This document shows, one piece after another, positions 9,449 through 63,494 of a stretch of 64,000 nucleotides of DNA. Origin of the DNA: an uncultured virus (IMG/VR IMGVR_UViG_3300025727_000005) (Duplodnaviria > Heunggongvirae > Uroviricota > Caudoviricetes); IMG/VR virus record IMGVR_UViG_3300025727_000005; one strand, written 5' to 3'. Numbering within the stretch: the stretch's first letter is position 1; each line of letters begins with the position of its first letter. The notes under the pieces were generated by a model, which worked only from the letters and a program-made list of their open reading frames with translations, had not been told where the DNA came from and made no database searches. The position numbers were made by a program, and so were the translations under genes.

Positions 9449-9746
9449 GCCTAAAAGTCGGAGACAAGATATAAGAGAGTTCTTAGTGATACACTTTAAA
9501 AGTGAATCACAACCACAGACTGTGGAGAACTGTCTGAACGCTTATATCATACAGAGAGATTTGGGTGGAGACTATAAACTCAAAACCAACGAGGTTAAAA
9601 CATCAAAACCCACTAGCAAAAAGTCTCGTGTTCGACTCAGAGATCAGATCGCCCAAGAGCTAGGTGTGGTGAAGCAAATGGGTTTGATATGCCGTCTAAG
9701 ATATGGTGTCTATGTTAAGAAGTACCCACCTAGCAGATCACCTTAA
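9435..9746 (+). CDS. basic hypothetical protein, possibly winged-helix-like DNA binder
   Basis: 103-aa ORF, likely start MPKSRR at 9447; C-terminal 'GLICRLRYGVY' resembles a wHTH wing. Confidence 0.45.
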   Translation: MNIAMPKSRRQDIREFLVIHFKSESQPQTVENCLNAYIIQRDLGGDYKLKTNEVKTSKPTSKKSRVRLRDQIAQELGVVKQMGLICRLRYGVYVKKYPPSRSP

Positions 9747-10289
9747 ACGCTTATTGATCTCCCTAACTAATGCAGAAGCGTCATCCTCTGGTTTAAAGTT
9801 CGTGTCTAACTCAAAGTTAAACTTCCTGTCTCTGGAACTCACAACCCAATTACCTTTAAAATCATCATACTCGATTTCGATCATTTCCGTTAGACTCAAA
9901 CCCTTGCTCGGATAGATTTCGCCACGACCAATGTTTGAGTGTCCAAAAGTATAGTTTTGGAAATGGCAGTCTGTAAAAGGTTGTTTCTCTTCTAGGAGAG
10001 AAACTACTTTTTTGCCATCGTAATGAACCATCACATAGTCCTTAGTCTTAAAACGACCAGTGATTTCTACCTCCCCACTATTCCCGTCTTGCTTCTTGAA
10101 CTCAACACTAGAGACATCCCAATCAACACCTGGGTTGTTCTCTTTGAGGTAACCAATCACATTTTCTTCTATTTCAGAAGCTGTCTCAAAGTACATCTCA
10201 CTAGAGATAGGTAGCAACTGAGCTGACTTTTCAAGTCTGGCGACTCTTGATTCAAGGTCATTAATGATTTCTGAAGCTGATCTTCTCAT
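9738..10289 (-). CDS. MRRSASE-leader protein 1 (cargo unknown)
   Basis: starts MRRSASEIINDLESRVARLEKSA. Confidence 0.85.
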   Translation of the reverse strand: MRRSASEIINDLESRVARLEKSAQLLPISSEMYFETASEIEENVIGYLKENNPGVDWDVSSVEFKKQDGNSGEVEITGRFKTKDYVMVHYDGKKVVSLLEEKQPFTDCHFQNYTFGHSNIGRGEIYPSKGLSLTEMIEIEYDDFKGNWVVSSRDRKFNFELDTNFKPEDDASALVREINKRLR

Positions 10290-10298
10290 GGGTCATTC

Positions 10299-10862
10299 TC
10301 AATTCTTTCTATACTCAGCTATAGCAGGTGTAAAATACTCCGATAAAATAACCTCTGAGACTAACCCCTTGCGTGTACTCTTGACTCGACCCAAAGTGTC
10401 TCGTAATTGTCTAATTTTTGATTCCATACAAAGACATATATTAGACCCTTTACCAAAATCTTCAGCGTCTAGCTCTAACCAGAAATCAATCTCGTATTTT
10501 ATTCCCTTTATCATGAAAGAAACATCACCCCCCCCAAGTATGCTTTGAGAAATTTTCTCGTTATACATAGTCCCAATATTCATATCACTGCTGTTCATAT
10601 GGAAGTTGTGTACTTTAATGTTTGTCGCACCTTTAGATTTAAGTGCTTTCATCATTTGTTTAGGGAAAGTCTTTTGTATTTCAATGTCCACACCCCTCGC
10701 ATACGATAAAAGATATTTTCTCTGTTCATTTAAGTCGCCATAGTCATAAGGATAGCCATCGTCTTCTGGATTGCCCTCCTCGTCTTCTGGATAGGATCGT
10801 TTTTCAAGTCTAGCGACTCTAGTTTCAAGATTACGGATTATTTCTGATGCTGATCTTCTCAT
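10299..10862 (-). CDS. MRRSASE-leader protein 2 (cargo unknown)
   Basis: start moved to MRRSASEIIRNLETRVARLEKRS; GAAAGGTG RBS; promoter motif upstream. Confidence 0.85.
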   Translation of the reverse strand: MRRSASEIIRNLETRVARLEKRSYPEDEEGNPEDDGYPYDYGDLNEQRKYLLSYARGVDIEIQKTFPKQMMKALKSKGATNIKVHNFHMNSSDMNIGTMYNEKISQSILGGGDVSFMIKGIKYEIDFWLELDAEDFGKGSNICLCMESKIRQLRDTLGRVKSTRKGLVSEVILSEYFTPAIAEYRKN

Positions 10863-10894
10863 AATGGACACACCTTTCATCTAAAAGATGACGA

Positions 10895-10911
10895 CAATAA
10901 ATAAACTACTA
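10895..10911 (-). promoter_or_regulatory. putative late promoter motif (TAGTAGTTTATTTATTG)
   Basis: copy of recurrent motif; overlaps stop codon of PAPS-reductase-family gene. Confidence 0.6.
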
Positions 10912-11769
10912 ATCATTGGTTTCACACAAGCCCCACCTAAAACAACCGATTTCATCTCTTCCTAGTTGTTCATCTGTGAAAAGTTCTTGTAATCCGTCTT
11001 GTTTCCCTTTAGCCCAAGATACCGCTTGCCTTATGTTTCCTTTCTTGAAGAAAGTGGCTTGACTCCCTCGCTCCTCAGATACTCTCTTCTCTAAGTTCTC
11101 TAAGTAGTCTATACGATCTGGATCTATTCTAGCCATATTACGAATGTCTGCTTTATTGGAGTATATACAAGGCCAACATCCAACTCTACTAGAACCCTTT
11201 AGATATAGAGGGTTTGGAGAAACACCGTTTTTCTGATGAATGTAAATCACATCTTCTTCTGACCATTCTAAAATAGGTCTGATTTGTGTCGCTTCGTCTT
11301 GCTCCTCTACATATCCAAAAGTAGATCTTCTGATCGACTCCCCTCTTCTAATACCTGTGATGTTAATGGGGAACTTTCGGTTCTTTAAGAAAACCTCCAC
11401 TGCGTAAGTTCGATAACTTACAAGTTTAAGCTCATTAGTACACCATTTTAAGCGTCCATTCGGGAACATTTTTTTCTGTAATACAGCACTCTCCATACCA
11501 TAAGCATGATCTTGGTAGTTGAGTTTTTCATTTTGAAGTTTGACTACTTCAACCCCCAAAATATCACTAAGGGTATCTACATACTTATATGTCAAAGGGT
11601 GTTCCCACCCAGTGTCGCAAAACACTGGAGTGAAAGGTATGTTATGTGTTTTTAACAACAACCCGACTGCTGTAGAGTCTTTTCCCCCACTACAACTTAA
11701 GATTAGAGGTCGATCTGTTTCTTTTAAGAATGCTATCGTTTCTTTTTCAGTGTTTAGTTCTAATGTCAT
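10909..11769 (-). CDS. PAPS-reductase-family (PP-loop) protein, possible DNA modification enzyme
   Basis: SCSGGKDS PP-loop, FCDTGWEHP, WCTNELK, GIRRGESIRR, RPILEWS, NPLY..GSSRVGCWPC. Confidence 0.85.
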   Translation of the reverse strand: MTLELNTEKETIAFLKETDRPLILSCSGGKDSTAVGLLLKTHNIPFTPVFCDTGWEHPLTYKYVDTLSDILGVEVVKLQNEKLNYQDHAYGMESAVLQKKMFPNGRLKWCTNELKLVSYRTYAVEVFLKNRKFPINITGIRRGESIRRSTFGYVEEQDEATQIRPILEWSEEDVIYIHQKNGVSPNPLYLKGSSRVGCWPCIYSNKADIRNMARIDPDRIDYLENLEKRVSEERGSQATFFKKGNIRQAVSWAKGKQDGLQELFTDEQLGRDEIGCFRWGLCETND

Positions 11770-11850: not shown

Positions 11851-11960
11851 AATAATCGAATAACCTTTTCCAATCAAGAGGGTGTTTTAATCTGCCGAAC
11901 TAGTTGTAAGCGATCTTTTGGATCATCTGGTAGGAGATGTGACATCCAACTTGGTGGATT
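11840..11960 (-). pseudogene. possible 3' gene remnant with 1-bp frameshift
   Basis: reads NPPSWMSHLLPDDPKDRLQLVRQIK / HPLDWKRLFDYFKP* if one A is removed. Confidence 0.3.
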
Positions 11961-12874
11961 TAATAATACAGTCTTCTCATAGGTCTAGTGATTGGGCTTG
12001 GTCTTCTAACAAAACCATCGTCAAGTCTAGCAAATCTTTTCTTTTCAACAGGGTACTTTTTAACTTTAGCTCTGTACTTTGTACCTAACTTGCCCTCTAC
12101 TTTACCTAGAACTTCACCTCTAGCGATTTCTACAGCCTTAACACCTGCTGGGTTCGCCAACTTACCATAAGCACTTGCACCCACAAAAAGACCTGTATCT
12201 TGATCTTCCCAAAGAACAAAGAAATGGAACTGACCTGCTCTTGAACCTACTCCCTCTAAATACATTGTACCAATCTCATTATAGTTAGATACACCTGTTT
12301 TACTTTCAAGTGCTTGGTAAGCCGATCTGGATAACGCTTCTGTTTTTGATAAATTATCAGAAGAAATCTCGTTATCAAGTTCCTTTTGTTTCTTATAGTT
12401 CTCTCTTCTTCTTGCCTTATCTTCACCCATAGCTTTAGGTTTCGATCTTGGTTCTCTCAAAAACCACCCTTGATCTTCGGCGTGTTCAGCTTCGCCCACA
12501 TAACCAGGTTTACCAGACTTTCCCCAACACTCTTTGTGGAAAACTGAAAAAGGAGCATTTTTCGCACTGCCGAGAGGTAGTCGTTTACCATTCATATTAT
12601 AGTATCCGTCATAAGCCTCATCAATCTCAACTTTGCCGTTTGGGTGGACAACGACCAACTCACTCATCCATTTAGACTTATCAGACCATGCTTTAGGTTG
12701 TTTTGGAGTACGAACACCTGGGATAACAGGTAGGGGTGTTGTGTCCCATTTAAAGTGGGAAATGATAGACTTGCCACAAGCCATACATTTCCAAGAACTG
12801 AACCCTGCTGTTTTTTCAAGACGAGCGACCCTTGTTTCAAGATTATGGATAATTTCTGATGCTGATCTTCTCAT
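11960..12874 (-). CDS. MRRSASE-leader protein 3: Cys/His zinc-binding-like domain plus WGR-like domain
   Basis: leader MRRSASEIIHNLETRVARLEKTA; CMAC...HKEC; C-terminal FHFFVLW...AYGKL...KYRAKVKKY resembles WGR. Confidence 0.8.
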   Translation of the reverse strand: MRRSASEIIHNLETRVARLEKTAGFSSWKCMACGKSIISHFKWDTTPLPVIPGVRTPKQPKAWSDKSKWMSELVVVHPNGKVEIDEAYDGYYNMNGKRLPLGSAKNAPFSVFHKECWGKSGKPGYVGEAEHAEDQGWFLREPRSKPKAMGEDKARRRENYKKQKELDNEISSDNLSKTEALSRSAYQALESKTGVSNYNEIGTMYLEGVGSRAGQFHFFVLWEDQDTGLFVGASAYGKLANPAGVKAVEIARGEVLGKVEGKLGTKYRAKVKKYPVEKKRFARLDDGFVRRPSPITRPMRRLYY

Positions 12875-12917: not shown

Positions 12918-12932
12918 CAATAAACAAATTAC
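12918..12932 (-). promoter_or_regulatory. putative late promoter variant (GTAATTTGTTTATTG)
   Basis: recurrent motif 44 nt upstream of leader ATG. Confidence 0.5.
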
Positions 12933-29574: not shown

Positions 29575-30435
29575 TTATGCAGGTGCTTCAGGTGCTGGAG
29601 CTACACCTGAAGCAGACGCACCTGCTGAACGACCCGTAGCAGTAGCCGCTCTCTCATTGTACAGGAGTGAACTGTTCTGACCAAGTGTTGGATCATTACC
29701 AGTAGCCATGAACTCACCATAGGTAGAGTATAGGTCATGCACATCTGTGATCTGAGCTTCGATATTCTGCTGAATGATGCCACCATCGGCTGACATCTCA
29801 CCATGATCCATCGAAGTGATCCAACAACCCTCACAATAAGTGATGAGTGCTTTGTGTATTTGTGAACCCACTGTACCAGCTTCACCCTCGGCATTAGGTA
29901 CAGCACCATCTCCTAATGCATTATTTGAATTCAATCCTCCTGTCGCATTTTGCGATGAGAAATCGACATCAACAAGGCCATTGGGGCCAGTAGCAGGTGC
30001 TTCGGTGTCAGCAAGAGTTGAGAACACAAGCTGTTGCTCAATGTCGAAAGGCCATCTGTGATGTTGTAAAGTACGAACGGGTCCATCAACACCACCTGCA
30101 AAACCAAATGCTTGGTGAGCATTTGAGAGATAAAGAAGGGTACGAACAAATGAAGCACTGTGAGGGTCTGAAACACCAGGTACGAGTTCAGCAATCTGAT
30201 CCCCGAAACCTACACCACGATATGGTTCTGCACCTCTTGAAGATCCAGAGATTGAGAATGAAGCAACCACACCGATCTGATATAGAAGTCCATCTGTACT
30301 TCCATAAGCAGGTGTGAGAATACGACACTTTTGAGAAACAACGGCACGAGTGTTTGGGGATGAATTGAACTTATACAGGGCAGAAGTACCTGCGATACCT
30401 GCTTGTGGGTTCATATCTTTATTATTTGCTGGCAT
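29575..30435 (-). CDS. tail tube protein
   Basis: IGVVASFSI..SR..EP.RGVGFGD..AELVPG, PFDIEQ, YCEGCWITS; AGGAGG RBS; first gene of tail operon. Confidence 0.7.
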   Translation of the reverse strand: MPANNKDMNPQAGIAGTSALYKFNSSPNTRAVVSQKCRILTPAYGSTDGLLYQIGVVASFSISGSSRGAEPYRGVGFGDQIAELVPGVSDPHSASFVRTLLYLSNAHQAFGFAGGVDGPVRTLQHHRWPFDIEQQLVFSTLADTEAPATGPNGLVDVDFSSQNATGGLNSNNALGDGAVPNAEGEAGTVGSQIHKALITYCEGCWITSMDHGEMSADGGIIQQNIEAQITDVHDLYSTYGEFMATGNDPTLGQNSSLLYNERAATATGRSAGASASGVAPAPEAPA

Positions 30436-30497: not shown

Positions 30498-30513
30498 TAT
30501 AAACGAACTATTA
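30498..30513 (-). promoter_or_regulatory. putative late promoter of tail operon (TAATAGTTCGTTTATA)
   Basis: same motif as before leader genes, here ahead of a structural operon. Confidence 0.65.
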
Positions 30514-40827: not shown

Positions 40828-40828
40828 T

Positions 40829-45726: not shown

Positions 45727-45741
45727 TATAAAGAAACTACA
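45727..45741 (-). promoter_or_regulatory. putative late promoter (TGTAGTTTCTTTATA)
   Basis: identical to 46235-46249. Confidence 0.6.
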
Positions 45742-45775
45742 AATCCTCGTCATATTCCTGTTGAGCGAGGATTAA
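45742..45775 (-). repeat. 34-bp third copy of actin-like gene 3' end; hairpin (possible terminator)
   Basis: aatcctcgtcatattcctgttgagcgaggattaa identical to 46254-46287 and 46864-46897; aatcctcg/cgaggatt inverted repeat. Confidence 0.85.
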
Positions 45776-46188
45776 GCCTCTTTTACTTCAATCTCTTTAT
45801 GGTCATAGATAACTTGGAAAGTCATCTTATGAACATAATTTTCAACCCCAAAAAGTTGAAGTTTTCTGGGTCTATCCATCGTACACTTAACCTCAACTAT
45901 TAGATCCCCAGCAAGATTAATAGATCGATACCCAAGAACTTTAATGTCTAAGTCGTCTGGTGTGTCTTCGGGAATATCAAAATCAAAAAAACCCTCGATG
46001 CCCAAGAAAAAGTCATATAAAGCGTCTTCTACCCAGTTTGATCTAACTCTTGACCCCGATAGTTTGCTTAAATCTTTTGCTATCGTGGTGGATAGGCTCT
46101 TGAGGGTTTCTTCCCGACTTGATTGTTTTTCAAGTCTAGCGATTCTTGACTCAAGGTTACGGATAATTTCACTAGCTGATCTTCTCAT
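45772..46188 (-). CDS. MRRSASE-leader protein 4
   Basis: MRRSASEIIRNLESRIARLEKQS. Confidence 0.85.
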   Translation of the reverse strand: MRRSASEIIRNLESRIARLEKQSSREETLKSLSTTIAKDLSKLSGSRVRSNWVEDALYDFFLGIEGFFDFDIPEDTPDDLDIKVLGYRSINLAGDLIVEVKCTMDRPRKLQLFGVENYVHKMTFQVIYDHKEIEVKEA

Positions 46189-46397: not shown

Positions 46398-46787
46398 TTA
46401 ACCAACAATGACAGTGTTAGGTCGATCAACCATGTTTGTTTGATACCTGTCCATTAACTCCGCATCAGTATCGAGGATGGCTTTGTTAATTTCTACTTCA
46501 ACGCAAAAATGCACTTTGCTTGACGAGATTGTCTTTACATTAGAGACAATACCCATTTGCCGAAGGTTTACCATATCAGACATGAAAGAGGAAACTGCTG
46601 ATTTTAGAGTAGATGGATAAAGGTGCGTGAAGCAATACTCATTAGCATGGGAGTTAAAATTCATTAAAATAACACATTCATCTCCGTCAATTATTCTGGT
46701 ATTGTATGCCGCAGTTTTACTTTTACCTTCAAGTCGTGCGATCCTAGACTCAAGATTTCTGATTACTTCACTAGCTGATCTTTTCAT
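46398..46787 (-). CDS. MRRSASE-leader protein 5
   Basis: start moved to MKRSASEVIRNLESRIARLEGKSKTA; GGAG RBS. Confidence 0.85.
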   Translation of the reverse strand: MKRSASEVIRNLESRIARLEGKSKTAAYNTRIIDGDECVILMNFNSHANEYCFTHLYPSTLKSAVSSFMSDMVNLRQMGIVSNVKTISSSKVHFCVEVEINKAILDTDAELMDRYQTNMVDRPNTVIVG

Positions 46788-46850: not shown

Positions 46851-46861
46851 ACCTTGACAGC

Positions 46862-49583: not shown

Positions 49584-50048
49584 ATGAGCGATAAATGGAA
49601 AGCAGGACCTGAAGTCCAAGAGCAGATTAATCATCTCATCGGAAACGCACACCCACACTTGGCTGACATCATGAATGACATTGTAGTCATCTTTAAAGAG
49701 AAGTGTTCACGCAAGGGTGGTCGCCCTATTCTCGGTAAGACCTCAAAAGCACCAGGGATCTTGTCTGTCCTTGGGGATCACGCATACGAGTTTGTCATTG
49801 AGCTTGGGGCAGACTGTTGGAACAACCTTAAAGAGAATGAGCGTATGGCTCTACTTGACCATCTTCTCTGCTTCATCGGAGGTGAAGAAGACGAGAAATC
49901 GGGTGAGATGAAGTATTATCTCTCGACTCCCGATGTCTTTTATTTCTCTGAGGAAGTTGCTCGTAATGGGAGTTGGCGTGAGGAGATCCTACCCGATGGT
50001 GTACCCGAAGAGGGTTCAGACGCACCTTTGTTAGACCCTATCGGTTAA
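49584..50048 (+). CDS. putative phage metallopeptidase-like protein, degenerate HExxH
   Basis: FVIEL..DCWNNL...ERMALLDHLLCF, PDV; GGAGGT RBS. Confidence 0.6.
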   Translation: MSDKWKAGPEVQEQINHLIGNAHPHLADIMNDIVVIFKEKCSRKGGRPILGKTSKAPGILSVLGDHAYEFVIELGADCWNNLKENERMALLDHLLCFIGGEEDEKSGEMKYYLSTPDVFYFSEEVARNGSWREEILPDGVPEEGSDAPLLDPIG

Positions 50049-50623
50049 AGGTCTAACCACCTTTTGAGTTCATTGCGATAGTTCTCACCCTTGTTGATGT
50101 AGTGGCTAACGATTTCATTAGACATGAACCTCATGTGGCATCCGATTGTCCAACGAAGATCACCCTTTCGATCAATCGAAGCATTTTCAAGTGTCAACAT
50201 GAAATGGGGATCTTCAGACCCATCAAGAAGTGTTCCTGACTGTAGCACTCGCCGATAATCCCCACCGCTCAGTTTAAATGCCTTTCGTCTAGGGTCAAAC
50301 TTTACATACTTTGGGAAAGTCTTATCAAAGGATTCTGATACGGTACCATCAGTATCGAGCTTATGTAGTGATGAAAGAATCTTCATAATATCTACAACTT
50401 CGTCATACAACTCGATATACAACTCTTGGGTAGGGGTGGTTTCTTCTTCTTGTCCAAAGTAATCATCTTTAAAAATCTTTGAGTCATCTTCATAGTATGA
50501 TCTCTCTGCGTCATACATATTAGAGTCAAAATAACCTTGTGGGTATCCTGCTGTCCTTTGGTTTTCAAGACGAGCGATTCTTGACTCAAGGTTTCTGATT
50601 ACTTCTGATGCTGATCTTCTCAT
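50045..50623 (-). CDS. MRRSASE-leader protein 6
   Basis: MRRSASEVIRNLESRIARLENQRTA; GAAAGGA RBS. Confidence 0.85.
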   Translation of the reverse strand: MRRSASEVIRNLESRIARLENQRTAGYPQGYFDSNMYDAERSYYEDDSKIFKDDYFGQEEETTPTQELYIELYDEVVDIMKILSSLHKLDTDGTVSESFDKTFPKYVKFDPRRKAFKLSGGDYRRVLQSGTLLDGSEDPHFMLTLENASIDRKGDLRWTIGCHMRFMSNEIVSHYINKGENYRNELKRWLDL

Positions 50624-50676
50624 GGGCTGTTCCTTTCATATAAGAACAATGGTATAAAAACACACCTAATGTTAAT

Positions 50677-50692
50677 TATAGGTAAACTATTA
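50677..50692 (-). promoter_or_regulatory. putative late promoter (TAATAGTTTACCTATA)
   Basis: recurrent motif. Confidence 0.6.
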
Positions 50693-50707
50693 AAAAGGAG
50701 TATTGAT

Positions 50708-51193: not shown

Positions 51194-51247
51194 GGTTTAT
51201 AAACTGTTTATAATCTCCTTTAGTTATAAAAACTGAGGTTAGTTTAT

Positions 51248-51931: not shown

Positions 51932-51984
51932 CTTGTTTTCAAGTCGTGCTATTCTTGATTCGAGTCTGAAGCTGATCTTTTCAT
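51923..51984 (-). pseudogene. empty, frameshifted MRRSASE-leader cassette
   Basis: ATG AAA AGA TCA GCT TCA GA, a 13-nt deletion, then CTC GAA TCA AGA ATA GCA CGA CTT GAA AAC AAG (LESRIARLENK); no cargo. Confidence 0.85.
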
Positions 51985-52032
51985 AATGGTTTCTCCATTT
52001 GGTTAAGGTTAAAGAGATCACTTAAGATCAAG

Positions 52033-52048
52033 TATAAATAAACTATCA
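52033..52048 (-). promoter_or_regulatory. putative late promoter (TGATAGTTTATTTATA)
   Basis: 49 nt upstream of the empty leader. Confidence 0.6.
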
Positions 52049-52051
52049 AAC

Positions 52052-53062
52052 CTAGTATGGCTCTCTGAAATCTAGGTTTTCTCCCTCAAGGAGATGAGCA
52101 ATAAAATTAAGCTCCTTCTTACTTAGACCTCTAAAAGTAAGAGTTGTTTCTAGGTGTCCAGACTCATTTAAGACAGCTTCTGTGAAATGATCCTCTACAC
52201 CCCAAGCATATCCAGCATAAACGGAAGAACTATCTTGCTCAAGTACTATTGAAGAGGGTTTGACCTCGACAGACATTAAACCCTCTATTTCACCAAACTC
52301 ACTCTTAACTGCTTCCTCAATGTCTTCCCCCCTCAACTGACCCTTATCTTCCCAAGTAGCGATTATATCCCTATCATCCATAAGTTTGTGGGTGAGTGTG
52401 TAGGTAGTATTTATTCGAGCTGTCTTGTTTTCAAGTCGAGCGACTCTTGATTCAAGACTGTTAATTATTTCACTAGCTGATCTTCTCATCCCTGCGATCT
52501 CCATATCTTTGAGTATTCTATTTAGAACTTTCTTGACTCTACGATCTCTAGTCAAAGAGAGGGCTTTTTCAAAGTCTCCGCTCCATAGTGCGTCATATTT
52601 TTCAGACATTTCATCTCTAAACTCTGGGTCATAGATATAAAGCATTGGTTCATGCTTTTCGATAGCCTCGATTAAGAGATGTTTTACGGACGAGTGTCTT
52701 TTCATGATGTATTCACTTTGTTTGCTTGTGGATGGAAAAGGGGTTGGGTTATATTTAGCCGCCATATCAACCATCTCACGATCTTCATGTGTGAGTCTTT
52801 GTCGATACCAGTCAGAACCCATAGTGATAAGTGCATAATTAGTACGGTCTAAAGATCTCTCCATTTTAGAGAGGTGCTTAGGGATGGCTTCAAAGTTATC
52901 CCCACAACGCTTGTATACTTCTTCTGCGAGTTGCGGGTGTTCTTTGATAGCTTCTACCATCTGGTTGACATGACTACGAACAATGTGAGCTTCTACACGA
53001 GAGGCTGAGACACCTTCAGATAAAATAGACCAAGATGCTTGGCTTGAAGATTTCTTTTTCAT
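52052..53062 (-). CDS. fusion protein with internal MRRSASE leader (ATG at 52489)
   Basis: start MKKKSSS; internal MRRSASEIINSLESRVARLENKTA. Confidence 0.8.
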   Translation of the reverse strand: MKKKSSSQASWSILSEGVSASRVEAHIVRSHVNQMVEAIKEHPQLAEEVYKRCGDNFEAIPKHLSKMERSLDRTNYALITMGSDWYRQRLTHEDREMVDMAAKYNPTPFPSTSKQSEYIMKRHSSVKHLLIEAIEKHEPMLYIYDPEFRDEMSEKYDALWSGDFEKALSLTRDRRVKKVLNRILKDMEIAGMRRSASEIINSLESRVARLENKTARINTTYTLTHKLMDDRDIIATWEDKGQLRGEDIEEAVKSEFGEIEGLMSVEVKPSSIVLEQDSSSVYAGYAWGVEDHFTEAVLNESGHLETTLTFRGLSKKELNFIAHLLEGENLDFREPY

Positions 53063-53096
53063 TATTATCCCCCTTGTCTTTTGTTCTAACGACAAT

Positions 53097-55406: not shown

Positions 55407-55408
55407 TT

Positions 55409-56140
55409 TTACCACCTGATCTTGAACTTGACTTTAAGTTGTAAATCTTCGTTAATGACTTCTTCTGGAGGTCTTGTGTCATAAGAATAGTTAAACTCAT
55501 TAATGATAGAGAAGAACTTATCTACCTTGAACTCTAATGAACCTGTCCCCAGAATACGATAATCAGAAGGAGTCATAAAGAGAGGCTGATAATAGGCTAT
55601 TATTTTCCCCTCTACTGTGTCCTTCCACTTTTTACCTAGTCTGATATAGGAAGTACCTCTAGCGTCTAACCTACCCTCTTTTAAGCCTTCAATTTGTTCA
55701 TAGTCTGACATACCCCCTAGACCTATGGCTAGATGGTCTTCAAAAGCAGTAAATCTAATTCCAAATCCAGTTAGTTGTCTGAGTTGAAGAAGTCTGAACT
55801 CATCTTTTTGGTTTTGGGTGAACATTTCTGTTCCTATGTGGTTGAACCACATAGCTGTCCACCTTAAATGAGAATACGCAGTGTTGTTAAAAGACTCTCC
55901 GTCTTCTTCTCCGTAGGAAACAGATCCTATAAGTAAGTTATGGTGTACGCCACTAATGTGATCTAACCTCAAACCTGCTTGGTATTGGAATACTTCCACA
56001 TTTCCTCTTTGAAGAGAAACTCCTACTTCGGTAGAACCATGTAATCCTTGCTTATTTCCACTTCGGTCAGACTCGATGTTTACAACCTGTCCCCATGCCA
56101 TAAGAGGGGGCATCAACAGAAAGATAAGCAAGGCTCTCAT
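55409..56140 (-). CDS. outer-membrane beta-barrel protein (DUF481-like)
   Basis: signal peptide MRALLIFLLMPPLMAWG; alternating beta-strands; YSYDTRPP; terminal aromatic residue (KFKIRW). Confidence 0.7.
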   Translation of the reverse strand: MRALLIFLLMPPLMAWGQVVNIESDRSGNKQGLHGSTEVGVSLQRGNVEVFQYQAGLRLDHISGVHHNLLIGSVSYGEEDGESFNNTAYSHLRWTAMWFNHIGTEMFTQNQKDEFRLLQLRQLTGFGIRFTAFEDHLAIGLGGMSDYEQIEGLKEGRLDARGTSYIRLGKKWKDTVEGKIIAYYQPLFMTPSDYRILGTGSLEFKVDKFFSIINEFNYSYDTRPPEEVINEDLQLKVKFKIRW

Positions 56141-57550: not shown

Positions 57551-58729
57551 TCACCACTCCAAGTCGTCAATGATGTCATAGTATCGAGCTTTTTTACCCA
57601 TTTCATCTCTGTTTTTTTCAACAAGACTAGGGTCTGGAGCTTGCCCTGGAGAAGTTACTGATCCTTCATACTCTAAAAAATCTTCTGGTACATCTCCATC
57701 TCTTCTAGCATTTGCGTACTCCTCTTGACCTTTTTCTCCCTTAGAATATTTTGATTCTTTATCGAAATCAGCCATGAACCCCATATCATCAATAATGTCC
57801 TCTGAACCTTGTTGGTCATCATCTCTATATCCACGATAACGAGCAACATCATTCATAGCAGAGTAAGACTGAGAAATCTTGTCCTCGACCCAATCATCAA
57901 GATCTTCCAGACCAATGTCATCAACGATGAAATCAGCCATGTCGCTCATCTCTCGTAGATTCTGTCGGCTCATGTATGAACCAGAGTCTTCGTGGTCTTT
58001 AGCAGTTCGACCAAGACCAATGTCATCAATAATCTCATCGTCTGAAGCGAACATAGGTCTGTGTGTTACTTGAGAGCCACCTTTTTCAGCAAGCATTACC
58101 GTAACATCATATCCCTTTATTCTTTTACGAGTGCCTTTTTGGAAATGTGCCTGTGCCATCTCCTGTGCTTCAAACTTCGAGTCCGCGTAGACTTCAACTT
58201 TTTCACGATTCCACATGGCGATATACCCATTAGAACCAGATCCGATTTGTTGACCCCCAGCCATGCGACCAAGACCCATGTCATCAATAATCTCATCGTC
58301 TGCTGACTTCATCTTTTCATTCATCTCTTCCTCAGAGTGAACTACTTCATCTTCAAACTTTTCAGCAACTTCAGGGTTGTCTTTTTTCCATTGTGCGACC
58401 GCTGTATCAACAACTTTATCTGAGTTATGCTTACGACTAGGTAAACGAGACTCTTTCCAAAAGTCGGACATACGACCAAGACCAATGTCATCGACAATCT
58501 CGAATCCTTCAAGTTCATCAGCCTCAAAGTCATCAGCGACAACATCATCTATATAGTTGCCTGGTCCACTTTTAAGGTCGCCATATCCCGTGTTGAGTTG
58601 TACCGTCTTTTCCCCCAAGAAATCGGCGGCATTTCTTTCACCATAGTCGGGCTGTAGGCGAAGGGGTTGTTGTGGTTGGCGAAGCTCCATGTGCTTCTGA
58701 GCGATTTTCTTTGCGAGTCTTTTAAACAT
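57551..58729 (-). CDS. acidic modular protein with repeated IIDD(I/M)GLGR(M/T)(A/S) linkers
   Basis: 392 aa; AAGGAG RBS; promoter at 58768-58783. Confidence 0.75.
   Translation of the reverse strand: MFKRLAKKIAQKHMELRQPQQPLRLQPDYGERNAADFLGEKTVQLNTGYGDLKSGPGNYIDDVVADDFEADELEGFEIVDDIGLGRMSDFWKESRLPSRKHNSDKVVDTAVAQWKKDNPEVAEKFEDEVVHSEEEMNEKMKSADDEIIDDMGLGRMAGGQQIGSGSNGYIAMWNREKVEVYADSKFEAQEMAQAHFQKGTRKRIKGYDVTVMLAEKGGSQVTHRPMFASDDEIIDDIGLGRTAKDHEDSGSYMSRQNLREMSDMADFIVDDIGLEDLDDWVEDKISQSYSAMNDVARYRGYRDDDQQGSEDIIDDMGFMADFDKESKYSKGEKGQEEYANARRDGDVPEDFLEYEGSVTSPGQAPDPSLVEKNRDEMGKKARYYDIIDDLEW
58008..58501. repeat. intragenic direct repeats (37 bp x2, plus 29-bp variant)
   Basis: cgaccaagacc(a/c)atgtcatcaataatctcatcgtctg at 58008-58044 and 58266-58302; variant at 58473-58501. 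Confidence 0.85.
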
Positions 58730-58767: not shown

Positions 58768-58783
58768 AATAGATAAACTATTA
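58768..58783 (-). promoter_or_regulatory. putative late promoter (TAATAGTTTATCTATT)
   Basis: overlaps stop codon of 58781..60667. Confidence 0.6.
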
Positions 58784-60667
58784 AATAGAGGGTAGTCCTA
58801 CGAGGTACTTAACAACATCACCCTTACCCTCTAGGTTTCGGGTGTAGCATTTTCTATCATCATCCCACTCAAGAGGTTTATTGATGATTGTCCTTACTTG
58901 ATCTTCATCTTGAACATGGTTGACACCGAGTCTCTTCTTTAAGAGTCGGGCGAACCTTGCGTCAACCTCTGCGTACCAACCTCTCTTTAAGAGAAGTTCA
59001 GCACCTTTCATCAACATAGCGTTCCTACCTTCACTTGTTCCGTCAGATCCGATGAGTCCAATCTTCTTTCCGAAAGGAGTAGATGAGTAGCTGACGAAAG
59101 CGTCTATCTCATCATCACCTTCTACATCTACAACCCAGAAGGTGTCGTAGTTGCTCATAAGATCCGACTTGGAGCTTATGTGTTTCCCTACTTTGGAGTA
59201 TGACAGATCATAAATAGTCCAAAGTTGTTCTTGTTGATCTTGATCAAACTGTCGAGGGGGTGCTTCAACCCACTTTTTACGCTCAAGATGAACACGAGCG
59301 ATACGACTAGCCATTCTTTGATGGGTGTTAAAGATCATCTTATATGCTTCGCCCACAGCTTTCTTATATTTGCCTTTGGCGTATCTTTTAAGAGTGTGAA
59401 AAAAGCTATTTGGGCTTGTGGATCTCGTCCATTTAGATTTTGACCCGACACCAGTTAAAGCTTTGAATACCTCTAATTTATCTTTTTCTGTGAAAGTCTC
59501 ATATTCAGAAAATCGCTTTAGATCAGACATTATTGTTCTAATGTTATCTCTAAGATCAGTATAAAACTCACCATCGTCAAGATAGTGGAGTTCCTTTTTA
59601 TCTCTTACGCTTAGACTTTTGGGGTCTCCATGTTGGTTATATTCAGGGGTTTGGATTTTCTTTGAGGGCATACCAGCTTCATTCTTATACGCCCTAAAAT
59701 TGTCTGTTATTTTCTTACCCACGAAAGTTAATATAGATTGACCAACATGAGTCATTTCATGGATTACAGAAGTATGCACTGCTCTTATTACATTACGCAC
59801 AGTAGGATGGTAATCAAAAGACTGAAGAATCTTTTTCCCATAGTCAGGGATAGCGATTGTGACTTCTTTTTTAGTAAAAGACCAACTACTGTTTGTTGCA
59901 TCTACCTCGATCTTTACTTTGATCTTGTCAAAATACTCCCAAGTACGGCTCATGTCTGACATACTTTTTTTTAAGGACTCAACCATCATTTCATAGTTTT
60001 CAATGAGGTCCTCGAACTCAGGGTTGTTTTTCTTTTTCGCCTTCTCAATTATTTGAGAATACTCCACGATTTGACCCTTGGCTTTTTCCCGCATCATTTC
60101 TTGATGTTCTTCTAATGAGTTTTGGTCGAGATACCAGTCACCAAAATAAATAGGGAACTCTTTAATAATCACCTGCCCCATTTTCATGGGTTTTAATTTT
60201 ACTCGGATGACTTTCTTAAATTCTTTTATCTCCCCTTTAAGTTTCTTTGTCTCTCTTTCGCCCCAAGATAAGTAACTCTCCAATTCGATCTCGGTTTTCG
60301 CTATGCTTTCTTCAACGACTACTCTTATCTGTTCTCTTTTGGCGGGGTCTTTTACTCCAGAGAAGTATCTCTGTTTTAAATGCATAGATGCATAACCATA
60401 TCCAAAGTACCCTGTGGACAATGAAGAAAAATCTTTATAACTATTGAAAAGACCACGAGTCCCATCCTTCCTTAACGATTCTCTAAGGGAGACAATGGAG
60501 TCTGAGAGGGCGGATAGACGGGTTTCTTGCTCTCCTCGGTAGTTTTTATAACTTTTAATCTTCTCTTGTAGGGCTTTGACGATATTAGTAGCTACTTGAG
60601 AGAGTGCAAAACCATAAACATCTTGAGTCATCATTTCTGGTGGCTTCATTAGTCCTGCGTATTTCAT
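58781..60667 (-). CDS. modular protein: coiled coil, HExxH zincin-like domain, possible GNAT-like C-terminal domain
   Basis: VIHEMTH; linker QRMASRIARVH before final domain. Confidence 0.6.
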   Translation of the reverse strand: MKYAGLMKPPEMMTQDVYGFALSQVATNIVKALQEKIKSYKNYRGEQETRLSALSDSIVSLRESLRKDGTRGLFNSYKDFSSLSTGYFGYGYASMHLKQRYFSGVKDPAKREQIRVVVEESIAKTEIELESYLSWGERETKKLKGEIKEFKKVIRVKLKPMKMGQVIIKEFPIYFGDWYLDQNSLEEHQEMMREKAKGQIVEYSQIIEKAKKKNNPEFEDLIENYEMMVESLKKSMSDMSRTWEYFDKIKVKIEVDATNSSWSFTKKEVTIAIPDYGKKILQSFDYHPTVRNVIRAVHTSVIHEMTHVGQSILTFVGKKITDNFRAYKNEAGMPSKKIQTPEYNQHGDPKSLSVRDKKELHYLDDGEFYTDLRDNIRTIMSDLKRFSEYETFTEKDKLEVFKALTGVGSKSKWTRSTSPNSFFHTLKRYAKGKYKKAVGEAYKMIFNTHQRMASRIARVHLERKKWVEAPPRQFDQDQQEQLWTIYDLSYSKVGKHISSKSDLMSNYDTFWVVDVEGDDEIDAFVSYSSTPFGKKIGLIGSDGTSEGRNAMLMKGAELLLKRGWYAEVDARFARLLKKRLGVNHVQDEDQVRTIINKPLEWDDDRKCYTRNLEGKGDVVKYLVGLPSI

Positions 60668-60669: not shown

Positions 60670-61716
60670 TTACCCCCTGTTTAGATATGAAGAAGCAACA
60701 CGACTAGCCCTGCGTTTATTGATGTCTCTTAATACGAGATCGACCACGCTTAGTTGAGCCGATGGTTTGACATTGGGCAACAGACCTGCAATCTCAATCG
60801 CTAACTCTTTTCTCGACAACCCGCTTTGAGCGAGGTTTAAGATTTGAGATACCTGTTCATCTGAAACATCTGTCTCTGACTGCAAGCAAGGCAGTAAGGA
60901 AGCCATTTTAGAGGTTGTTGAGGGTAAGTGTCTGATGATCTCTGGGAATGTGGAGATACCTTTACAAGTACGGATTAAGTCAGCCCCCTCAAACAAGAAC
61001 GCAGTACATTCTCCTTGAGCGTTCTTTTCAAAATCAAGGGAATACTGTCCAACACCTGGAACTGAGACTTTGTAAACAAGATATATCCCGTCCACATCTG
61101 CTTTACATGACCACTTATCAAGCATGGTCATGTAGCCTAAGTGCTTCACACTTGATACGATCTCTTTTACAGAGCTTACAAAGTCATCTCTAGTAGCCAT
61201 GATTTGTCTCCCATCTTCTGTTATTTCACGCTCAATCATAAGAGCAGGTCTGCGAACTAAGTAGTTAGGCCACTTCTCGTACCACTTAGCATAGAAGTCA
61301 TCTTCGGAGACTTCACGAGTGGTCTTGTCGGGGTTGGGTAGATTCGGGTCAGCCACATGAACTACATAGCTTCCTTTTTCACCTGTAACATCAAAGATCA
61401 AACTAGCATGACTCCAATCCCTACCTTCGGGATTCCATGCAATAAGTACAGGCTTACCCTCATCTGTCCACGCTTTTACTTGGGTCAAAGTAGCTGGTGT
61501 AGTGAGGGTAGCTCGACACCCAAAATACTGAGCACAAGCTAAGACTTCTTCCCACCTAGCCCCTTGCATAGGTTTTGCACCAATCACTTGATTGACTTGA
61601 TCCTCGTTGCACTTAACGCCAACAGCATTTAGAGCCATACAGGTGGAGGTCGCCACACAACTAAACTGTGAACGCTGTCGTATTGGGCTCACATCTGCTT
61701 TTGCTGATCTTCTCAT
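60670..61716 (-). CDS. C39-like papain-fold cysteine peptidase with truncated MRRSA leader
   Basis: QRSQFSCVAT (Q/C), WSHASLI (H), VADP (D); C-terminal RRASRVASSY. Confidence 0.8.
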   Translation of the reverse strand: MRRSAKADVSPIRQRSQFSCVATSTCMALNAVGVKCNEDQVNQVIGAKPMQGARWEEVLACAQYFGCRATLTTPATLTQVKAWTDEGKPVLIAWNPEGRDWSHASLIFDVTGEKGSYVVHVADPNLPNPDKTTREVSEDDFYAKWYEKWPNYLVRRPALMIEREITEDGRQIMATRDDFVSSVKEIVSSVKHLGYMTMLDKWSCKADVDGIYLVYKVSVPGVGQYSLDFEKNAQGECTAFLFEGADLIRTCKGISTFPEIIRHLPSTTSKMASLLPCLQSETDVSDEQVSQILNLAQSGLSRKELAIEIAGLLPNVKPSAQLSVVDLVLRDINKRRASRVASSYLNRG

Positions 61717-61753
61717 GATAGGTATCCCTTTCTATTGTTAGAAAAGGCACACC

Positions 61754-61768
61754 TATAAAGAGACTACA
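61754..61768 (-). promoter_or_regulatory. putative late promoter (TGTAGTCTCTTTATA)
   Basis: tataaagagactacaaatc, near-identical to the 46235 copy. Confidence 0.6.
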
Positions 61769-61779
61769 AATCTACTGTC

Positions 61780-62541
61780 TTATCTTCTCTTAAACTTCGC
61801 TTTATTGAGGTGAATCTGAATGTGTCCTTTTTCTCCTATACCAATATCATAGTCCTTATCGTAGCCCGATTTGAGCTTTTGAAATATGGGGTACTTTCTT
61901 GTTAGGAGTTTATTAAGATCATTGGTTAGAGGTCCAGCCCACTCATCCCACCAACCTTCTTCATCCCAACCTTCTGGATCACAGTCATCATCCCAATCCT
62001 CATCACAGTCATAATTCTCTCCAACATAATGGTCGAGTCTATGTCTATTCATAGGTTCTATCCATAGGAACCAGGTATCTCCATCGTCACTTAGATCCAT
62101 ACCACTCATACGACTGCCATTCGGGGTCCTTGATCTAATCAAGAAATCGTATACCTCTTGAGCTGTCGGTAGTTGTTCTTCAACTGTAGGTCGAGATCGA
62201 GGTGTTGATCTAGTAGGTGTTGGTTGTCGAACAGCTCTTGCACTTGGAACAGAGGGTTGTCTACCTGTTGGGTTGGATCTAAATGAGTCAGCCAAGTCAG
62301 ATGCGTTGTTTCTGTGCATCATCTTTCTGATGTTTTTTAGATCACGATCACTAAGATCTCCACCGTCTTTGAGGATCTGAAGGTATCCTCCAAGTTCAAT
62401 GACCATTCTCGTGTCAGTTCGGTTTTGAGCTATGAAACCCCTAAGAACTTCATAAGCCTCTGTCTTAGTAGTCGCTTGTTTTTCAAGCCTTGCAATCCTC
62501 ATCTCAAGACTTCTGATTATTTCTGAGGCTGATCTTCTCAT
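61780..62541 (-). CDS. MRRSASE-leader protein 7
   Basis: MRRSASEIIRSLEMRIARLEKQA; GGAG RBS. Confidence 0.85.
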   Translation of the reverse strand: MRRSASEIIRSLEMRIARLEKQATTKTEAYEVLRGFIAQNRTDTRMVIELGGYLQILKDGGDLSDRDLKNIRKMMHRNNASDLADSFRSNPTGRQPSVPSARAVRQPTPTRSTPRSRPTVEEQLPTAQEVYDFLIRSRTPNGSRMSGMDLSDDGDTWFLWIEPMNRHRLDHYVGENYDCDEDWDDDCDPEGWDEEGWWDEWAGPLTNDLNKLLTRKYPIFQKLKSGYDKDYDIGIGEKGHIQIHLNKAKFKRR

Positions 62542-62578
62542 AAGTGTTCTCCATTGATTTAGGTTAGTTAAGATCTAG

Positions 62579-62594
62579 TATAATGAAACTATTA
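62579..62594 (-). promoter_or_regulatory. putative late promoter (TAATAGTTTCATTATA)
   Basis: overlaps stop codon of 62592 gene. Confidence 0.6.
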
Positions 62595-63494
62595 AAAGCG
62601 ATCTCTATCAAAAGAATCGCTATCAAAGTCTGCAATCACATCATATTCAATTTGAGCAACGACAATAACAGTTAAATATCTGTCATCATCTCGAAAGATG
62701 TCTCTAACTTCATAATCATACTCGATCACTTCGATTTGAGAGATGTTATGATAGCTAGGGAGTCTCTGTTTTATCTCATATTCAACTTCACCAAAAGCTA
62801 AGTCAATTTCTTCTGATCCCATATTTCTCAAGATGTTGTTCTCAATGTTCTTAGTGAGAGCATCACACAAGATTTTAGTAGATTTATCTTCTGGAGGATA
62901 GAAGTCATCTAAGTTCATCTTAGCTAGTTTCTCAAGGTCTTTTAAGTCAACTTTGAGCTTCATCTTGGTCTTTGATCCTACGACACCCGAAACTGTGTCC
63001 AATTCGGGATAAGCTGGATTGCTAGGGTGTAGCATAGAGTTTGATTCAACTTCGATCTCACCTTTCATAAGTTTTTCATTCTTATTGATGACTTCACCAT
63101 CAAGAATAGAAGCAGACAAAGCATGGAGGAAATGATTTGCTTGTCGATCAGAAACACCTGGCATCATTGCTTGAACAGACTTTAATCCTGTACCTGCTTG
63201 TTTCAGACTCGCATTACGATAACTCGATGTTATCCGATCTGCATCACGATCTGACAGATACATATCTGTATCCCGATCATAATACTTGCCTGCTTTCGGG
63301 TCGTAGTAAAGAACTTCACCACCTTTAAACATGAAAGGCCCTTCAAGACCTTGATTGGAAAGATCTGTGTACCGATCACGATCAAGACGGGGCAGACGAT
63401 GTTTAGCCATCATTTCTTCATGGTGTCTCTTTGCAGAGGATCTCTTCTCAAGGTTCGCAATACGCACCTCAAGATTTCTGATTGTATCTTTCAT
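62592..63494 (-). CDS. protein with diverged leader (MKDTIRNLEVRIANLEKRS) and GLEGPF/YYDP module
   Basis: GGAG RBS; modules separated by RNASLKQAG. Confidence 0.75.
   Translation of the reverse strand: MKDTIRNLEVRIANLEKRSSAKRHHEEMMAKHRLPRLDRDRYTDLSNQGLEGPFMFKGGEVLYYDPKAGKYYDRDTDMYLSDRDADRITSSYRNASLKQAGTGLKSVQAMMPGVSDRQANHFLHALSASILDGEVINKNEKLMKGEIEVESNSMLHPSNPAYPELDTVSGVVGSKTKMKLKVDLKDLEKLAKMNLDDFYPPEDKSTKILCDALTKNIENNILRNMGSEEIDLAFGEVEYEIKQRLPSYHNISQIEVIEYDYEVRDIFRDDDRYLTVIVVAQIEYDVIADFDSDSFDRDRF

What the first reader, a model, noticed from the sequence alone, without database searches (positions are those of the whole stretch)
9738..63494. Portable 'late promoter + MRRSASE leader + K/R-x-A/S site' cassette fused to unrelated cargo proteins: candidate capsid-loading tag system
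Seen: the ~21-aa N-terminus M(R/K)RSASE(I/V)IxxLExR(V/I)ARLE heads seven otherwise unrelated ORFs (ATGs at 10289, 10862, 12874, 46188, 46787, 50623, 62541). It also occurs internally (52489), truncated (61716), diverged (63494) and empty (51984). All 11 copies are on the minus strand across >50 kb. The first 14 nt, ATGA(G/A)AAGATCAGC, are fixed in 10 copies while later codons vary synonymously. Each intact leader ends at K/R-x-A/S (KSA, KRS, KTA, KQS, KTA, RTA, KTA, KQA, KRS), and similarity stops there. Most copies follow the same promoter motif as the tail-tube operon. Known: R-h-x-x-h-E (here RVARLE/RIARLE) is the short coiled-coil trimerisation motif, and T4 internal proteins use a short N-terminal capsid-targeting sequence removed by the prohead protease. 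Inference: this is a plug-and-play tag that recruits arbitrary cargo into the prohead, is cleaved off, and lets the phage vary its injected effector repertoire.
Basis: partly seen in the sequence, partly recalled or inferred. Interest (0 to 1): 0.92.

Follow-up and report, generated by a model that had tools for sequence, protein, structure and literature searches.

The report
Cut-off cargo tag, marine huge phage
A group of uncultured giant ocean phages puts the same short, probably removable peptide in front of dozens of unrelated, frequently swapped small proteins, most likely to pack them into the virus head as phage T4 does with three proteins, though neither packing nor cutting has been measured.

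Summary
The leader lies at the stated sites, has 31 copies in a complete 376-kb relative and matches 1,136 protein clusters. The head module is of the Bacillus phage G lineage and has a protease of T4 gp21/herpes-assemblin fold.

The leader carries three K/R-x-A words, and the third tracks the cargo boundary. K/R-x-A-S is enriched in the head operon and in the protease's own extensions, not in tail proteins. The published cut in phage G's capsid protein (after Ala27) aligns with K-L-A|A-S in this clade's capsid proteins.

Cargos are mostly orphans. They are swapped at the end of the leader in fixed genomic slots, and some are strung into polyproteins by half-leaders.

Best reading (0.68): a late-expressed, trimer-forming propeptide that loads cargo into the prohead and is cut off by the head protease. 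The promoter-plus-leader DNA doubles as a recombination handle. Packaging, cleavage and ejection are all inferred, and about a quarter of junctions read K/R-x-S. It works like T4's capsid-targeting sequence but is unrelated in sequence and much larger in scale: a new variant of a known kind.

The parts
9738..10289 (-). Leader (10227-10289) + K-S-A junction + orphan cargo, 183 aa; second gene behind the 10897 promoter
10299..10862 (-). Leader + K-R-S junction + cargo, 187 aa
10897..10908 (-). Late-promoter-like motif TAGTTTATTTAT
   Evidence: score 23.1
11960..12874 (-). Leader + K-T-A junction + cargo, 304 aa; the same slot holds a different leader cargo in G002 and none in G004
12920..12931 (-). 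Late-promoter-like motif
   Evidence: 20.6
29575..30435 (-). Probable tail-tube gene heading the tail operon (reference for the promoter)
   Evidence: 34% to a Tunturi_5 virion structural protein; tube identity inferred from gene order
30499..30510 (-). Same promoter motif before the tail operon
   Evidence: 18.2
45728..45775 (-). Third copy of the volactin-gene 3' end (45742-45775) followed by the promoter motif (45728-45739): remnant of cassette accretion
45772..46188 (-). Leader + K-Q-S junction + cargo, 138 aa
46236..46387 (-). Promoter motif (46236-46247) behind a 141-nt duplicate of the volactin-gene 3' end (94% identical to 46857-46997)
46398..46787 (-). Leader + G-K-S-K-T-A junction + cargo, 129 aa
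46836..46847 (-). Late-promoter-like motif
   Evidence: 23.3
50045..50623 (-). Leader + R-T-A junction + cargo, 192 aa; cargo (50048-50561) replaced in G002 and skipped or replaced in contigs of two public runs
50678..50689 (-). Weaker promoter motif TAGTTTACCTAT
   Evidence: 11.7
51932..52045 (-). Broken, cargo-less cassette: promoter 52034-52045, ATG 51984, leader with a 13-base internal loss
52052..53095 (-). Conserved late protein (stand-alone in G002 and G003) fused in frame to an internal leader (52427-52489) + K-T-A + 145-aa cargo unit
60670..61716 (-). C39-like peptidase starting MRRSA (first site only), behind the promoter at 61755-61766
61780..62541 (-). Leader + K-Q-A junction + cargo, 253 aa, behind the promoter at 62580-62591
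62592..63494 (-). Diverged leader (second half only) + K-R-S-S-A + cargo matching phrog_13298; homologues in G002 and G004 have other N-termini

Best explanation
The leader is a propeptide that addresses proteins to the assembling prohead and is then removed by the phage's head-maturation protease.

Steps, marked shown or inferred:
(1) A portable DNA cassette (promoter motif, often a hairpin over the ribosome-binding site, RBS, leader) puts any downstream ORF under the control used by virion operons. Motif shown; late timing inferred.
(2) Residues 5-23 form a short three-stranded coiled coil. Model-supported. It is taken to co-assemble with the prohead core; the partner is unknown.
(3) The gp21/assemblin-fold protease cuts after Ala in K/R-x-A at residues 3-5, 15-17 and the cargo boundary, freeing the cargo and splitting polyproteins. 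Inferred from motif distribution, anchored by one published cut site in phage G.
(4) Freed cargos (median full length about 155 aa) stay in the head and probably enter the host with the DNA. Inferred by analogy to T4 IPI-III; the weakest step.
(5) Promoter plus leader also serves as the homology arm at which cargos are exchanged. Swaps shown; mechanism inferred.

Own odds: cut by the head protease 0.8; packaged in the head 0.75; ejected as host-directed effectors 0.5.
For: Cut word:
- K/R-x-A within residues 21-34 in 90 of 118 leader proteins, against 4-9 of 118 in control windows deeper in the cargos.
- In one cargo family the linker varies from 0 to 22 residues, yet K/R-x-A sits at the same place just before the cargo in 35 of 42 homologues.
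- None of 287 leaders lacks both the R-[VI]-A word and a junction K/R-x-A (about 3 expected; p 0.04).
- K/R-x-A-S: 14 observed vs 2.1 expected in five head-operon/portal proteins of G002, 4 vs 5.7 in 16 tail proteins, 10 vs 6.0 in 33 metabolic proteins.
- In 120 protease homologues: 107 vs 8 in the N-extension, 258 vs 25 in the C-extension, 4 vs 11 in the catalytic domain.
- Phage G capsid protein matures from 282 to 255 aa / 28.2 kDa (PMC5646251, table). Removing 27 residues gives 255 aa / 28.17 kDa, a cut after Ala27 that aligns with K-L-A|A-S in 5 of 5 related capsid proteins.

Protease: best structural match T4 gp21 (Z 9.9, rmsd 3.3, 139 aligned), then VZV (7.5) and CMV (6.3) proteases.

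Promoter: before the tube, head-closure, sheath-region, baseplate, fibre and head operons, but before only 4 of 33 metabolic genes.

Trimer model: score 0.48, best control 0.02; mark reached by 20 of 30 solved self-pairs and 1 of 23 single chains; runs agree in at least 96% of contacts; pLDDT at least 71; R15-E20' contact.

Polyproteins with internal full or half leaders.

Turnover: 3 of 9 window leader genes vs 43 of 49 other genes have a G002 homologue. Same-slot swaps end at the junction.
Against: - No virion, proteomic or expression data exist for this clade.
- 78 of 287 junctions lack K/R-x-A (70 of these have K/R-x-S), and K/R-x-S-[SAG] is not enriched in head proteins (3 vs 6.2).
- Among the profile-search hits, only 7 of the 50 lacking a site at position 21 have one at 22-34.
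- The phage G cut is A-L-A|Q, so P3 is not basic there. The figure comes from a table and assumes N-terminal loss only; PDB 6wkk lists a 280-residue chain.
- The scaffold does not resemble the leader (-0.7 bits), so no docking partner is identified.
- The portal of G002 has no K/R-x-A-S.
- The head group was hand-picked after seeing the sequences, and related sequences are not independent counts.
- The promoter matrix was trained on leader genes, so 23 of 25 in G002 is circular; G003 gives only 5 of 11.
- The trimer pass may reflect likeness to solved coiled coils. Only three copies were tried, with my own alignment.
- No cargo matches a known anti-defence family in Pfam or PHROGs (PADLOC not searched).
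Confidence: 0.68

Rival explanations
1. The leader is a permanent trimerisation or anchor module that fixes variable domains on the outside of the virion (head fibre or decoration-like), or simply oligomerises cytoplasmic proteins; it is not removed.
For: Trimer model with an I9/L12/V16/L19 core and an R15-E20' contact. The core residues are the most conserved. Its predicted helix runs on into the cargo in one model. About 27% of junctions lack K/R-x-A.
Against: The K/R-x-A word follows the cargo boundary, not the coil. The same word marks the scaffold, the protease extensions and the capsid-protein propeptide. The one cargo modelled is a small alpha/beta domain whose viral look-alikes are stand-alone proteins of about 100 aa.
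Confidence: 0.12
2. The unit under selection is DNA/RNA: a PeSL-like expression and recombination cassette (promoter, RBS-occluding hairpin, efficient first codons). The peptide is mostly a passenger, kept alike by recombination.
For: Codons 2 and 3 are each AGA in 53 of 58 copies, and L12 is CTT in 52 of 58, against 33% and 27% genome-wide. Homology between genomes spans promoter plus leader and ends at the junction. Duplicated volactin ends flank cassettes. RBS-covering hairpins are commoner after the promoter (z < -1.5 in 41% and 38% vs 19%).
Against: Third codon positions vary most. Half-leaders persist inside polyproteins, where they have no role in initiation. K/R-x-A is re-created at variable offsets. 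A relative uses an unrelated peptide that also mostly ends K/R-x-A.
Confidence: 0.1
3. The leader is an address or timer for another destination: loading into the tail-tube lumen, a late cytoplasmic compartment, or activation of cargos by the late protease outside the head.
For: The promoter also heads the tail operon. No head partner was identified. 3 of 128 cargos have a membrane-like segment.
Against: The cut word is not enriched in tail proteins (4 vs 5.7) but is in head proteins (14 vs 2.1). In T4 and SPN3US, prohead-protease substrates are head proteins (PMC9026906, PMC10052503).
Confidence: 0.1

Closest known systems
T4 capsid-targeting sequence (CTS) of IPI, IPII, IPIII, removed by gp21 (PMC9026906, passages read)
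   Same: Short shared N-terminal propeptide on unrelated, non-conserved small proteins, with a protease of the gp21 fold. The review already proposes the CTS as an evolutionary means to load varied proteins.
   Different: No sequence likeness. 21-23 aa predicted trimeric coil vs 10-19 aa. Ala-ended words vs Glu (T4 rule recalled; SPN3US A-X-E read). Phage G/HK97-type head, not T4 gp23. Up to 31 copies dispersed in one genome; polyproteins. No experimental proof.
SPN3US/phiKZ ejection-protein propeptides cut by gp245/gp175 (PMC10052503, passages read)
   Same: Giant phage; motif-directed multiple cuts in propeptides; protease trims its own C-terminus.
   Different: Those propeptides are mostly long (111-254 aa; two of 20 and 24 aa), end in A-X-E, and are not reported there as one shared tag.
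P1 DarB N-terminal 30-residue packaging signal (PMC9024508, passages read)
   Same: Short N-terminal signal sufficient to load a foreign protein into a non-T4 head.
   Different: No consensus among Dar proteins; no shared tag.
PeSL mobile regulatory cassettes of RB49/phi1 (PMC2839356, abstract and outline read)
   Same: Repeated promoter cassettes that bound gene gain, loss and replacement.
   Different: PeSLs are early sigma70-like promoters with terminator stem-loops and non-coding. Here the motif is shared with virion operons and the repeat extends into a coding leader.
Bacillus phage G head module (gp19 protease, gp27 capsid protein; PMC5646251, PMC12484599, passages read)
   Same: Homologous capsid protein (38%) and protease; K/R-x-A-rich head-cluster proteins (26 vs 6.3); capsid protein cut after Ala27.
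   Different: Phage G, Tunturi_5 and LR745208 gave no match to this leader (the first look found no candidates).

Membership tests
T4-type CTS system | Short N-terminal peptide shared by otherwise unrelated proteins | tested here: met
   128 complete leader proteins in 89 cargo families; 144 of 149 top profile hits start M-[RK]-[RK]-x-A
T4-type CTS system | Sequence homology to the T4 CTS and a Glu-ended gp21 site | tested here: not met
   Junction words end in Ala or Ser; the T4 rule is recalled, and no direct alignment to T4 proteins was run
T4-type CTS system | Prohead protease of gp21/assemblin fold in the same genome | tested here: met
   G002 protease model vs 5jbl Z 9.9, rmsd 3.3, 139 aligned; phrog_18299 E 5e-14. 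The gene lies outside the window; shown in relatives G002-G004
T4-type CTS system | T4 gp23-type head | tested here: not met
   Capsid protein matches phage G gp27 and cluster C mycobacteriophages
T4-type CTS system | Late expression with virion genes | tested here: inconclusive
   Shared promoter motif; no transcript data
T4-type CTS system | Peptide removed by the protease at the predicted site | not testable with these tools
   Indirect only:
T4-type CTS system | Peptide sufficient for packaging; cargo ejected into the host | not testable with these tools
   No cultured member carries this leader among the records searched
PeSL-type shuffling cassette | Repeated promoter cassette bounding gene gain, loss and replacement | tested here: met
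   G004 vs G002: 3 slots with a different cargo, 6 empty, 2 same, 1 undetermined, of 12
PeSL-type shuffling cassette | Early sigma70-like promoter plus terminator stem-loop | tested here: not met
   Motif is shared with virion operons, and the hairpin lies downstream over the RBS; no terminator scan was run
PeSL-type shuffling cassette | Excised mini-circles | tested here: inconclusive
   'Goes back' joints are short (35-36 letters) and explained by paralogous cassettes
Short trimeric coiled coil (R-h-x-x-h-E motif, recalled) | Arg...Glu motif with a hydrophobic a/d core forming three strands | tested here: inconclusive
   R15, L19 and E20 near-invariant; model passes (0.48 vs 0.02), but two and four copies were not tried and the pass may be from likeness to solved coils

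The most novel reading that the evidence does not exclude
Phage G-lineage huge phages run a genome-wide, recombination-fed library of virion cargo. One 63-nt coding repeat is at once a trimeric prohead address, a triple protease fuse and the homology arm at which cargos are swapped or chained into polyproteins. More than a thousand uncharacterised small proteins would then be delivered at infection as a fast-turnover host-takeover and anti-defence arsenal, and sister lineages do the same with interchangeable tags ending in the same cut word.
Probability: 0.4. Interest if true: 0.85.

Novelty: new variant of a known kind. Interest (0 to 1): 0.62.

Why it matters
If true, the leader is a sequence-level label for virion-delivered proteins in an abundant marine huge-phage clade. 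It would nominate about 1,100 protein clusters of unknown function as candidate injected effectors, a focused pool for anti-defence discovery.

It also gives a testable cleavage rule (K/R-x-A) for the phage G, Tunturi_5 and cluster C protease lineage, where I found no published rule. It extends capsid-targeting tags beyond T4-like and P1 heads, and shows how one repeat can couple protein sorting to gene shuffling.

The principle itself is known from T4, and earlier unchecked notes of this scan report many analogous tags, which caps the score.

Tried and rejected
- No whole genome is held for the window. Head genes were studied in relatives G002-G004, whose shared proteins are about 81-83% identical to the window's for G002 and G004.
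- Leader derived from the scaffold: an eye-catching stretch in the scaffold scored -0.7 bits, rank 64-66 of 549; rejected.
- Plain K/R-x-A enrichment by composition did not separate promoter from non-promoter genes (1.24 vs 1.14 in G002). Only K/R-x-A-S/A/G with shuffles did.
- Cargos are neither enriched nor depleted in K/R-x-A (30 vs 31.6).
- Cargos as paralogues of one fold: no cross hits among the window cargos, and 167 families among 268 cargos. Only one cargo was modelled, so fold-level paralogy is not excluded.
- The cargo model had no clear solved match (best Z 5.0). The ESM Atlas gave only hits of 0.79 or less for the 12874 cargo. NCBIfam gave nothing for the leader proteins.
- A fixed pairing of the UTR word with codons 2-4 showed no consistent covariation.
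- No sigma70 region-2 gene in G001-G004, so the factor reading the promoter is unknown.
- No RNA holder listed.
- Phage G virion lists: the searched terms found no per-protein proteomic table in the eight supplements; Fig. 6 could not be seen.
- The 'lead' flag printed was mis-set; I read those rows by eye and recounted.
- Literature searches listed no paper on this leader or on a K/R-x-A phage protease rule. The library lacks most subscription papers, and Gonzalez et al. 2020 on phage G was not read.
- The host was not determined.

Full report
OBSERVATION. All eleven sites are present as stated. Eight are full 21-residue leaders, 63494 keeps the second half, 51984 has lost 13 internal bases and has no cargo, and 61716 shares only MRRSA. 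The first 14 nt occur 10 times against 0.13 expected. Third codon positions are the least conserved (0.82/0.89/0.65). The ten window cargos are unrelated to each other by phmmer (best E 0.12). A motif TAGTTTnTTTAT occurs 15 times against 2.6 expected. A matrix trained on other genomes finds it 34-54 nt before 8 of the 11 copies (one at 11.7, just under my cut of 12) and before the tube gene.

CONTEXT. The window is part of a contractile-tailed huge phage. It holds a tail operon, helicases, methyltransferases and an actin-like gene, and the runs that hold it are marine. No genome is held for it, so I used relatives found with a leader pattern. G002 is 375,691 bp, rated complete, with 31 leader matches; G003 has 11, G004 12, and the nearest record G001 15. 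In G002 the copies lie on both strands (17 plus, 14 minus) and make up about 7% of some 417 called genes. A profile search of 1.84 billion cluster representatives gave 1,136 hits at E 0.001 or better. Of the best 149 examined (one 4,986-aa fibre-like hit left out), 144 begin with the leader.

HEAD MODULE. G002-G004 encode protease, acidic scaffold-like protein, decoration protein and capsid protein in one operon. The capsid protein is 38% identical to Bacillus phage G gp27 and 46% to Tunturi_5. The protease model matches T4 gp21 best (Z 9.9, rmsd 3.3, 139 aligned), then herpesvirus assemblins (Foldseek gave the same top hit at E 0.005). The promoter motif precedes the head operon and the tube, head-closure, sheath-region, baseplate and fibre genes, but only 4 of 33 metabolic genes. 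It also occurs between divergent genes, so it is a promoter rather than a terminator (inference). The figure of 23 of 25 leader genes in G002 is circular, because the matrix was trained on them; G003 gives 5 of 11. Many promoter-bearing genes have a hairpin right after the motif that covers the RBS (z < -1.5 in 41% of 27 leader genes, 38% of 74 others, 19% of 568 genes without the motif; G002 and G004 are not independent). This recalls T4 late genes, whose early read-through transcripts are silenced by such hairpins (PMC3014915, passages).

THE CUT WORD. The leader reads R-S/T-A at 3-5, R-I/V-A at 15-17 and K/R-x-A/S at or after 21-23.
- K/R-x-A lies in residues 21-34 in 90 of 118 proteins, against 4-9 in control windows. 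In the profile-selected set it is 83 of 126, with K/R-x-S making up the rest.
- In one cargo family (phrog_9437) the linker varies from 0 to 22 residues and the unit often sits last in a polyprotein. Still, K/R-x-A stands at the same place just before the cargo in 35 of 42 homologues; 2 have K-x-S, 2 are shifted, 1 has Q-S-A, 1 was mis-parsed and 1 is leaderless.
- Of 287 leaders, 11 lack Ala17, and all 11 have a junction K/R-x-A.
- K/R-x-A-S is 14 vs 2.1 in five hand-picked head proteins, 4 vs 5.7 in tail and 10 vs 6.0 in metabolic proteins.
- In 120 protease homologues it crowds the N- and C-extensions (107 vs 8; 258 vs 25) and avoids the catalytic domain (4 vs 11), the pattern expected of self-trimming.
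- Phage G head-cluster proteins show the same word (26 vs 6.3).

EXPERIMENTAL ANCHOR. Hua et al. list phage G's mature capsid protein as 255 aa, 28.2 kDa, from N-terminal sequencing (PMC5646251, table text). Removing 27 residues gives 255 aa and 28.17 kDa, a cut after Ala27, and this position aligns with K-L-A|A-S in G002, G003, G004, LR745208 and Tunturi_5. Herpes assemblins also cut after Ala (recalled).

AGAINST THE RULE. Phage G's own site has Ala, not Lys/Arg, at P3, and 6wkk lists a 280-residue chain. 78 of 287 junctions lack K/R-x-A, K/R-x-S-[SAG] is not enriched in head proteins, and G002's portal lacks the four-letter word.

STRUCTURE. Three copies of the leader fold as a coiled coil with an I9/L12/V16/L19 core and an R15-E20' contact. 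Score 0.48, best control 0.02; the mark was reached by 20 of 30 solved self-pairs and 1 of 23 single chains; contacts agree at least 96%; pLDDT at least 71. The calibration used two copies and other alignments, and the pass may come from likeness to known coils. The scaffold is not homologous to the leader, so the docking partner is unknown.

CARGOS. There are 128 complete proteins in 89 families, median 155 aa, and 3 have a membrane-like segment against 31 of 392 other G002 proteins. With the profile hits, there are 268 cargos in 167 families. Pfam names one WGR and one JmjC family among 89 representatives, and one WGR and one N-terminally fused HAD among 149 hits. PHROGs hits 8 of 89, two of them within the leader itself. 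Some cargos occur without the leader (P0193; the whole 98-position phrog_9437 profile; stand-alone viral look-alikes). No effector function is demonstrated.

TURNOVER. Of 9 window leader genes, 3 have a G002 homologue (one only through its non-cargo part), against 43 of 49 other genes; for G004 vs G002 it is 4 of 12 vs 214 of 247. At three slots, window and G002 share flank, promoter and leader, then diverge at the junction into unrelated cargos. Of 12 G004 leader genes, 3 slots hold a different cargo in G002, 6 are empty, 2 are the same and 1 is undetermined. Contigs of 2 of 4 laid runs join 50048 to 50561, skipping or replacing exactly the 50623 cargo up to leader codon 21. Three copies of the volactin gene's 3' end, each followed by the promoter, flank the 46188 and 46787 cassettes, as expected from insertion by single crossover (inference). 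Near-fixed synonymous codons in the leader suggest homogenisation between copies.

OTHER TAGS. LR745208 (capsid protein 89% identical) has no match to this leader but carries 11 copies of a different two-helix tag, of which G003 has 5 and G002 1. Six of the seven LR745208 copies printed end K/R-x-A directly and the seventh a few residues later. An R-V-A-x-R-Y word marks the ends of other late proteins. The system is therefore a family of tags sharing one cut word.

VERDICT. Shown: the repeat, its scale, the unrelated and exchangeable cargos, the shared promoter motif, the protease fold and the distribution of the cut word. Inferred: late timing, cleavage, packaging and ejection. It works like the T4 CTS, for which cargo diversification is already proposed (PMC9026906, passages), and shuffles like PeSL cassettes (PMC2839356, abstract), but it fails sequence membership of both. 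Searches listed no description of this leader or cut rule. Earlier unchecked AI notes describe many analogous tags (253 findings); I read them after my motif analysis, and they lower uniqueness without adding support. New variant of a known kind; best explanation 0.68; interest 0.62.

Noticed in passing
window 46862-47863 (-): Actin-like gene (Pfam Volactin, E 5e-75), 97% and 92% identical in G002 and G003; its 3' end is a cassette insertion hot spot.
   Followed up: partly
window 35207-45143 (+): Four paralogous N4/N6 methyltransferase genes with a QueC-like/hydroxylase fusion and an ABC-GNAT gene between or after them; a possible DNA-modification cluster.
   Followed up: no
window 10909-11769 (-): PAPS-reductase-family gene inserted between leader cassettes, without a homologue in G002-G004.
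   Followed up: no
window 57551-58729 (-): Acidic promoter-bearing protein with repeated units ending L-G-R-[MT]-[AS]; looks like a core protein cut into pieces.
   Followed up: no
window 53577-55415 and 58781-60667 (-): Two large proteins with HExxH motifs (possible zinc peptidases); the second carries R-M-A-S-R-I-A-R-V between its domains.
   Followed up: no
window 55409-56191 (-): DUF481 family gene (E 3.5e-11); outer-membrane beta-barrel role recalled, not tested.
   Followed up: no
L196-L206 (LR745208), L207-L212 (G003, G002): Second portable tag, a two-helix peptide mostly ending K/R-x-A: 11 copies in LR745208, 5 in G003 (three in one ORF), 1 in G002.
   Followed up: partly
G002 61721-63145 (L152:1721-3142): Tyrosine-recombinase-like gene (at the Pfam cut-off) behind the late promoter motif; also in G004. 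Candidate for cassette movement.
   Followed up: partly
G002 50555-52096 (L151:10558-12096): Scaffold-like protein with EF-hand repeats in G002 and G004, absent from the G003 version.
   Followed up: no
G002 8726-11338 (L149:8729-11338): 870-aa protein with nine K/R-x-A-S words (0.95 expected); a likely polyprotein or core protein.
   Followed up: no
G002 103291-104496 (L154:3294-4496): Adenylosuccinate synthase; PHROGs calls it PurZ-like, but NCBIfam scores PurA far higher (416 vs 118 bits).
   Followed up: partly
L052:11039-12151, L011:10044-10724, L158:17861-18790: Three leader proteins with membrane-like hydrophobic segments; candidates for ejected membrane proteins.
   Followed up: no
window 51395-51433: Loose ends at the same places in contigs of several laid runs suggest an insertion in the metallophosphoesterase gene in some strains.
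   Followed up: no
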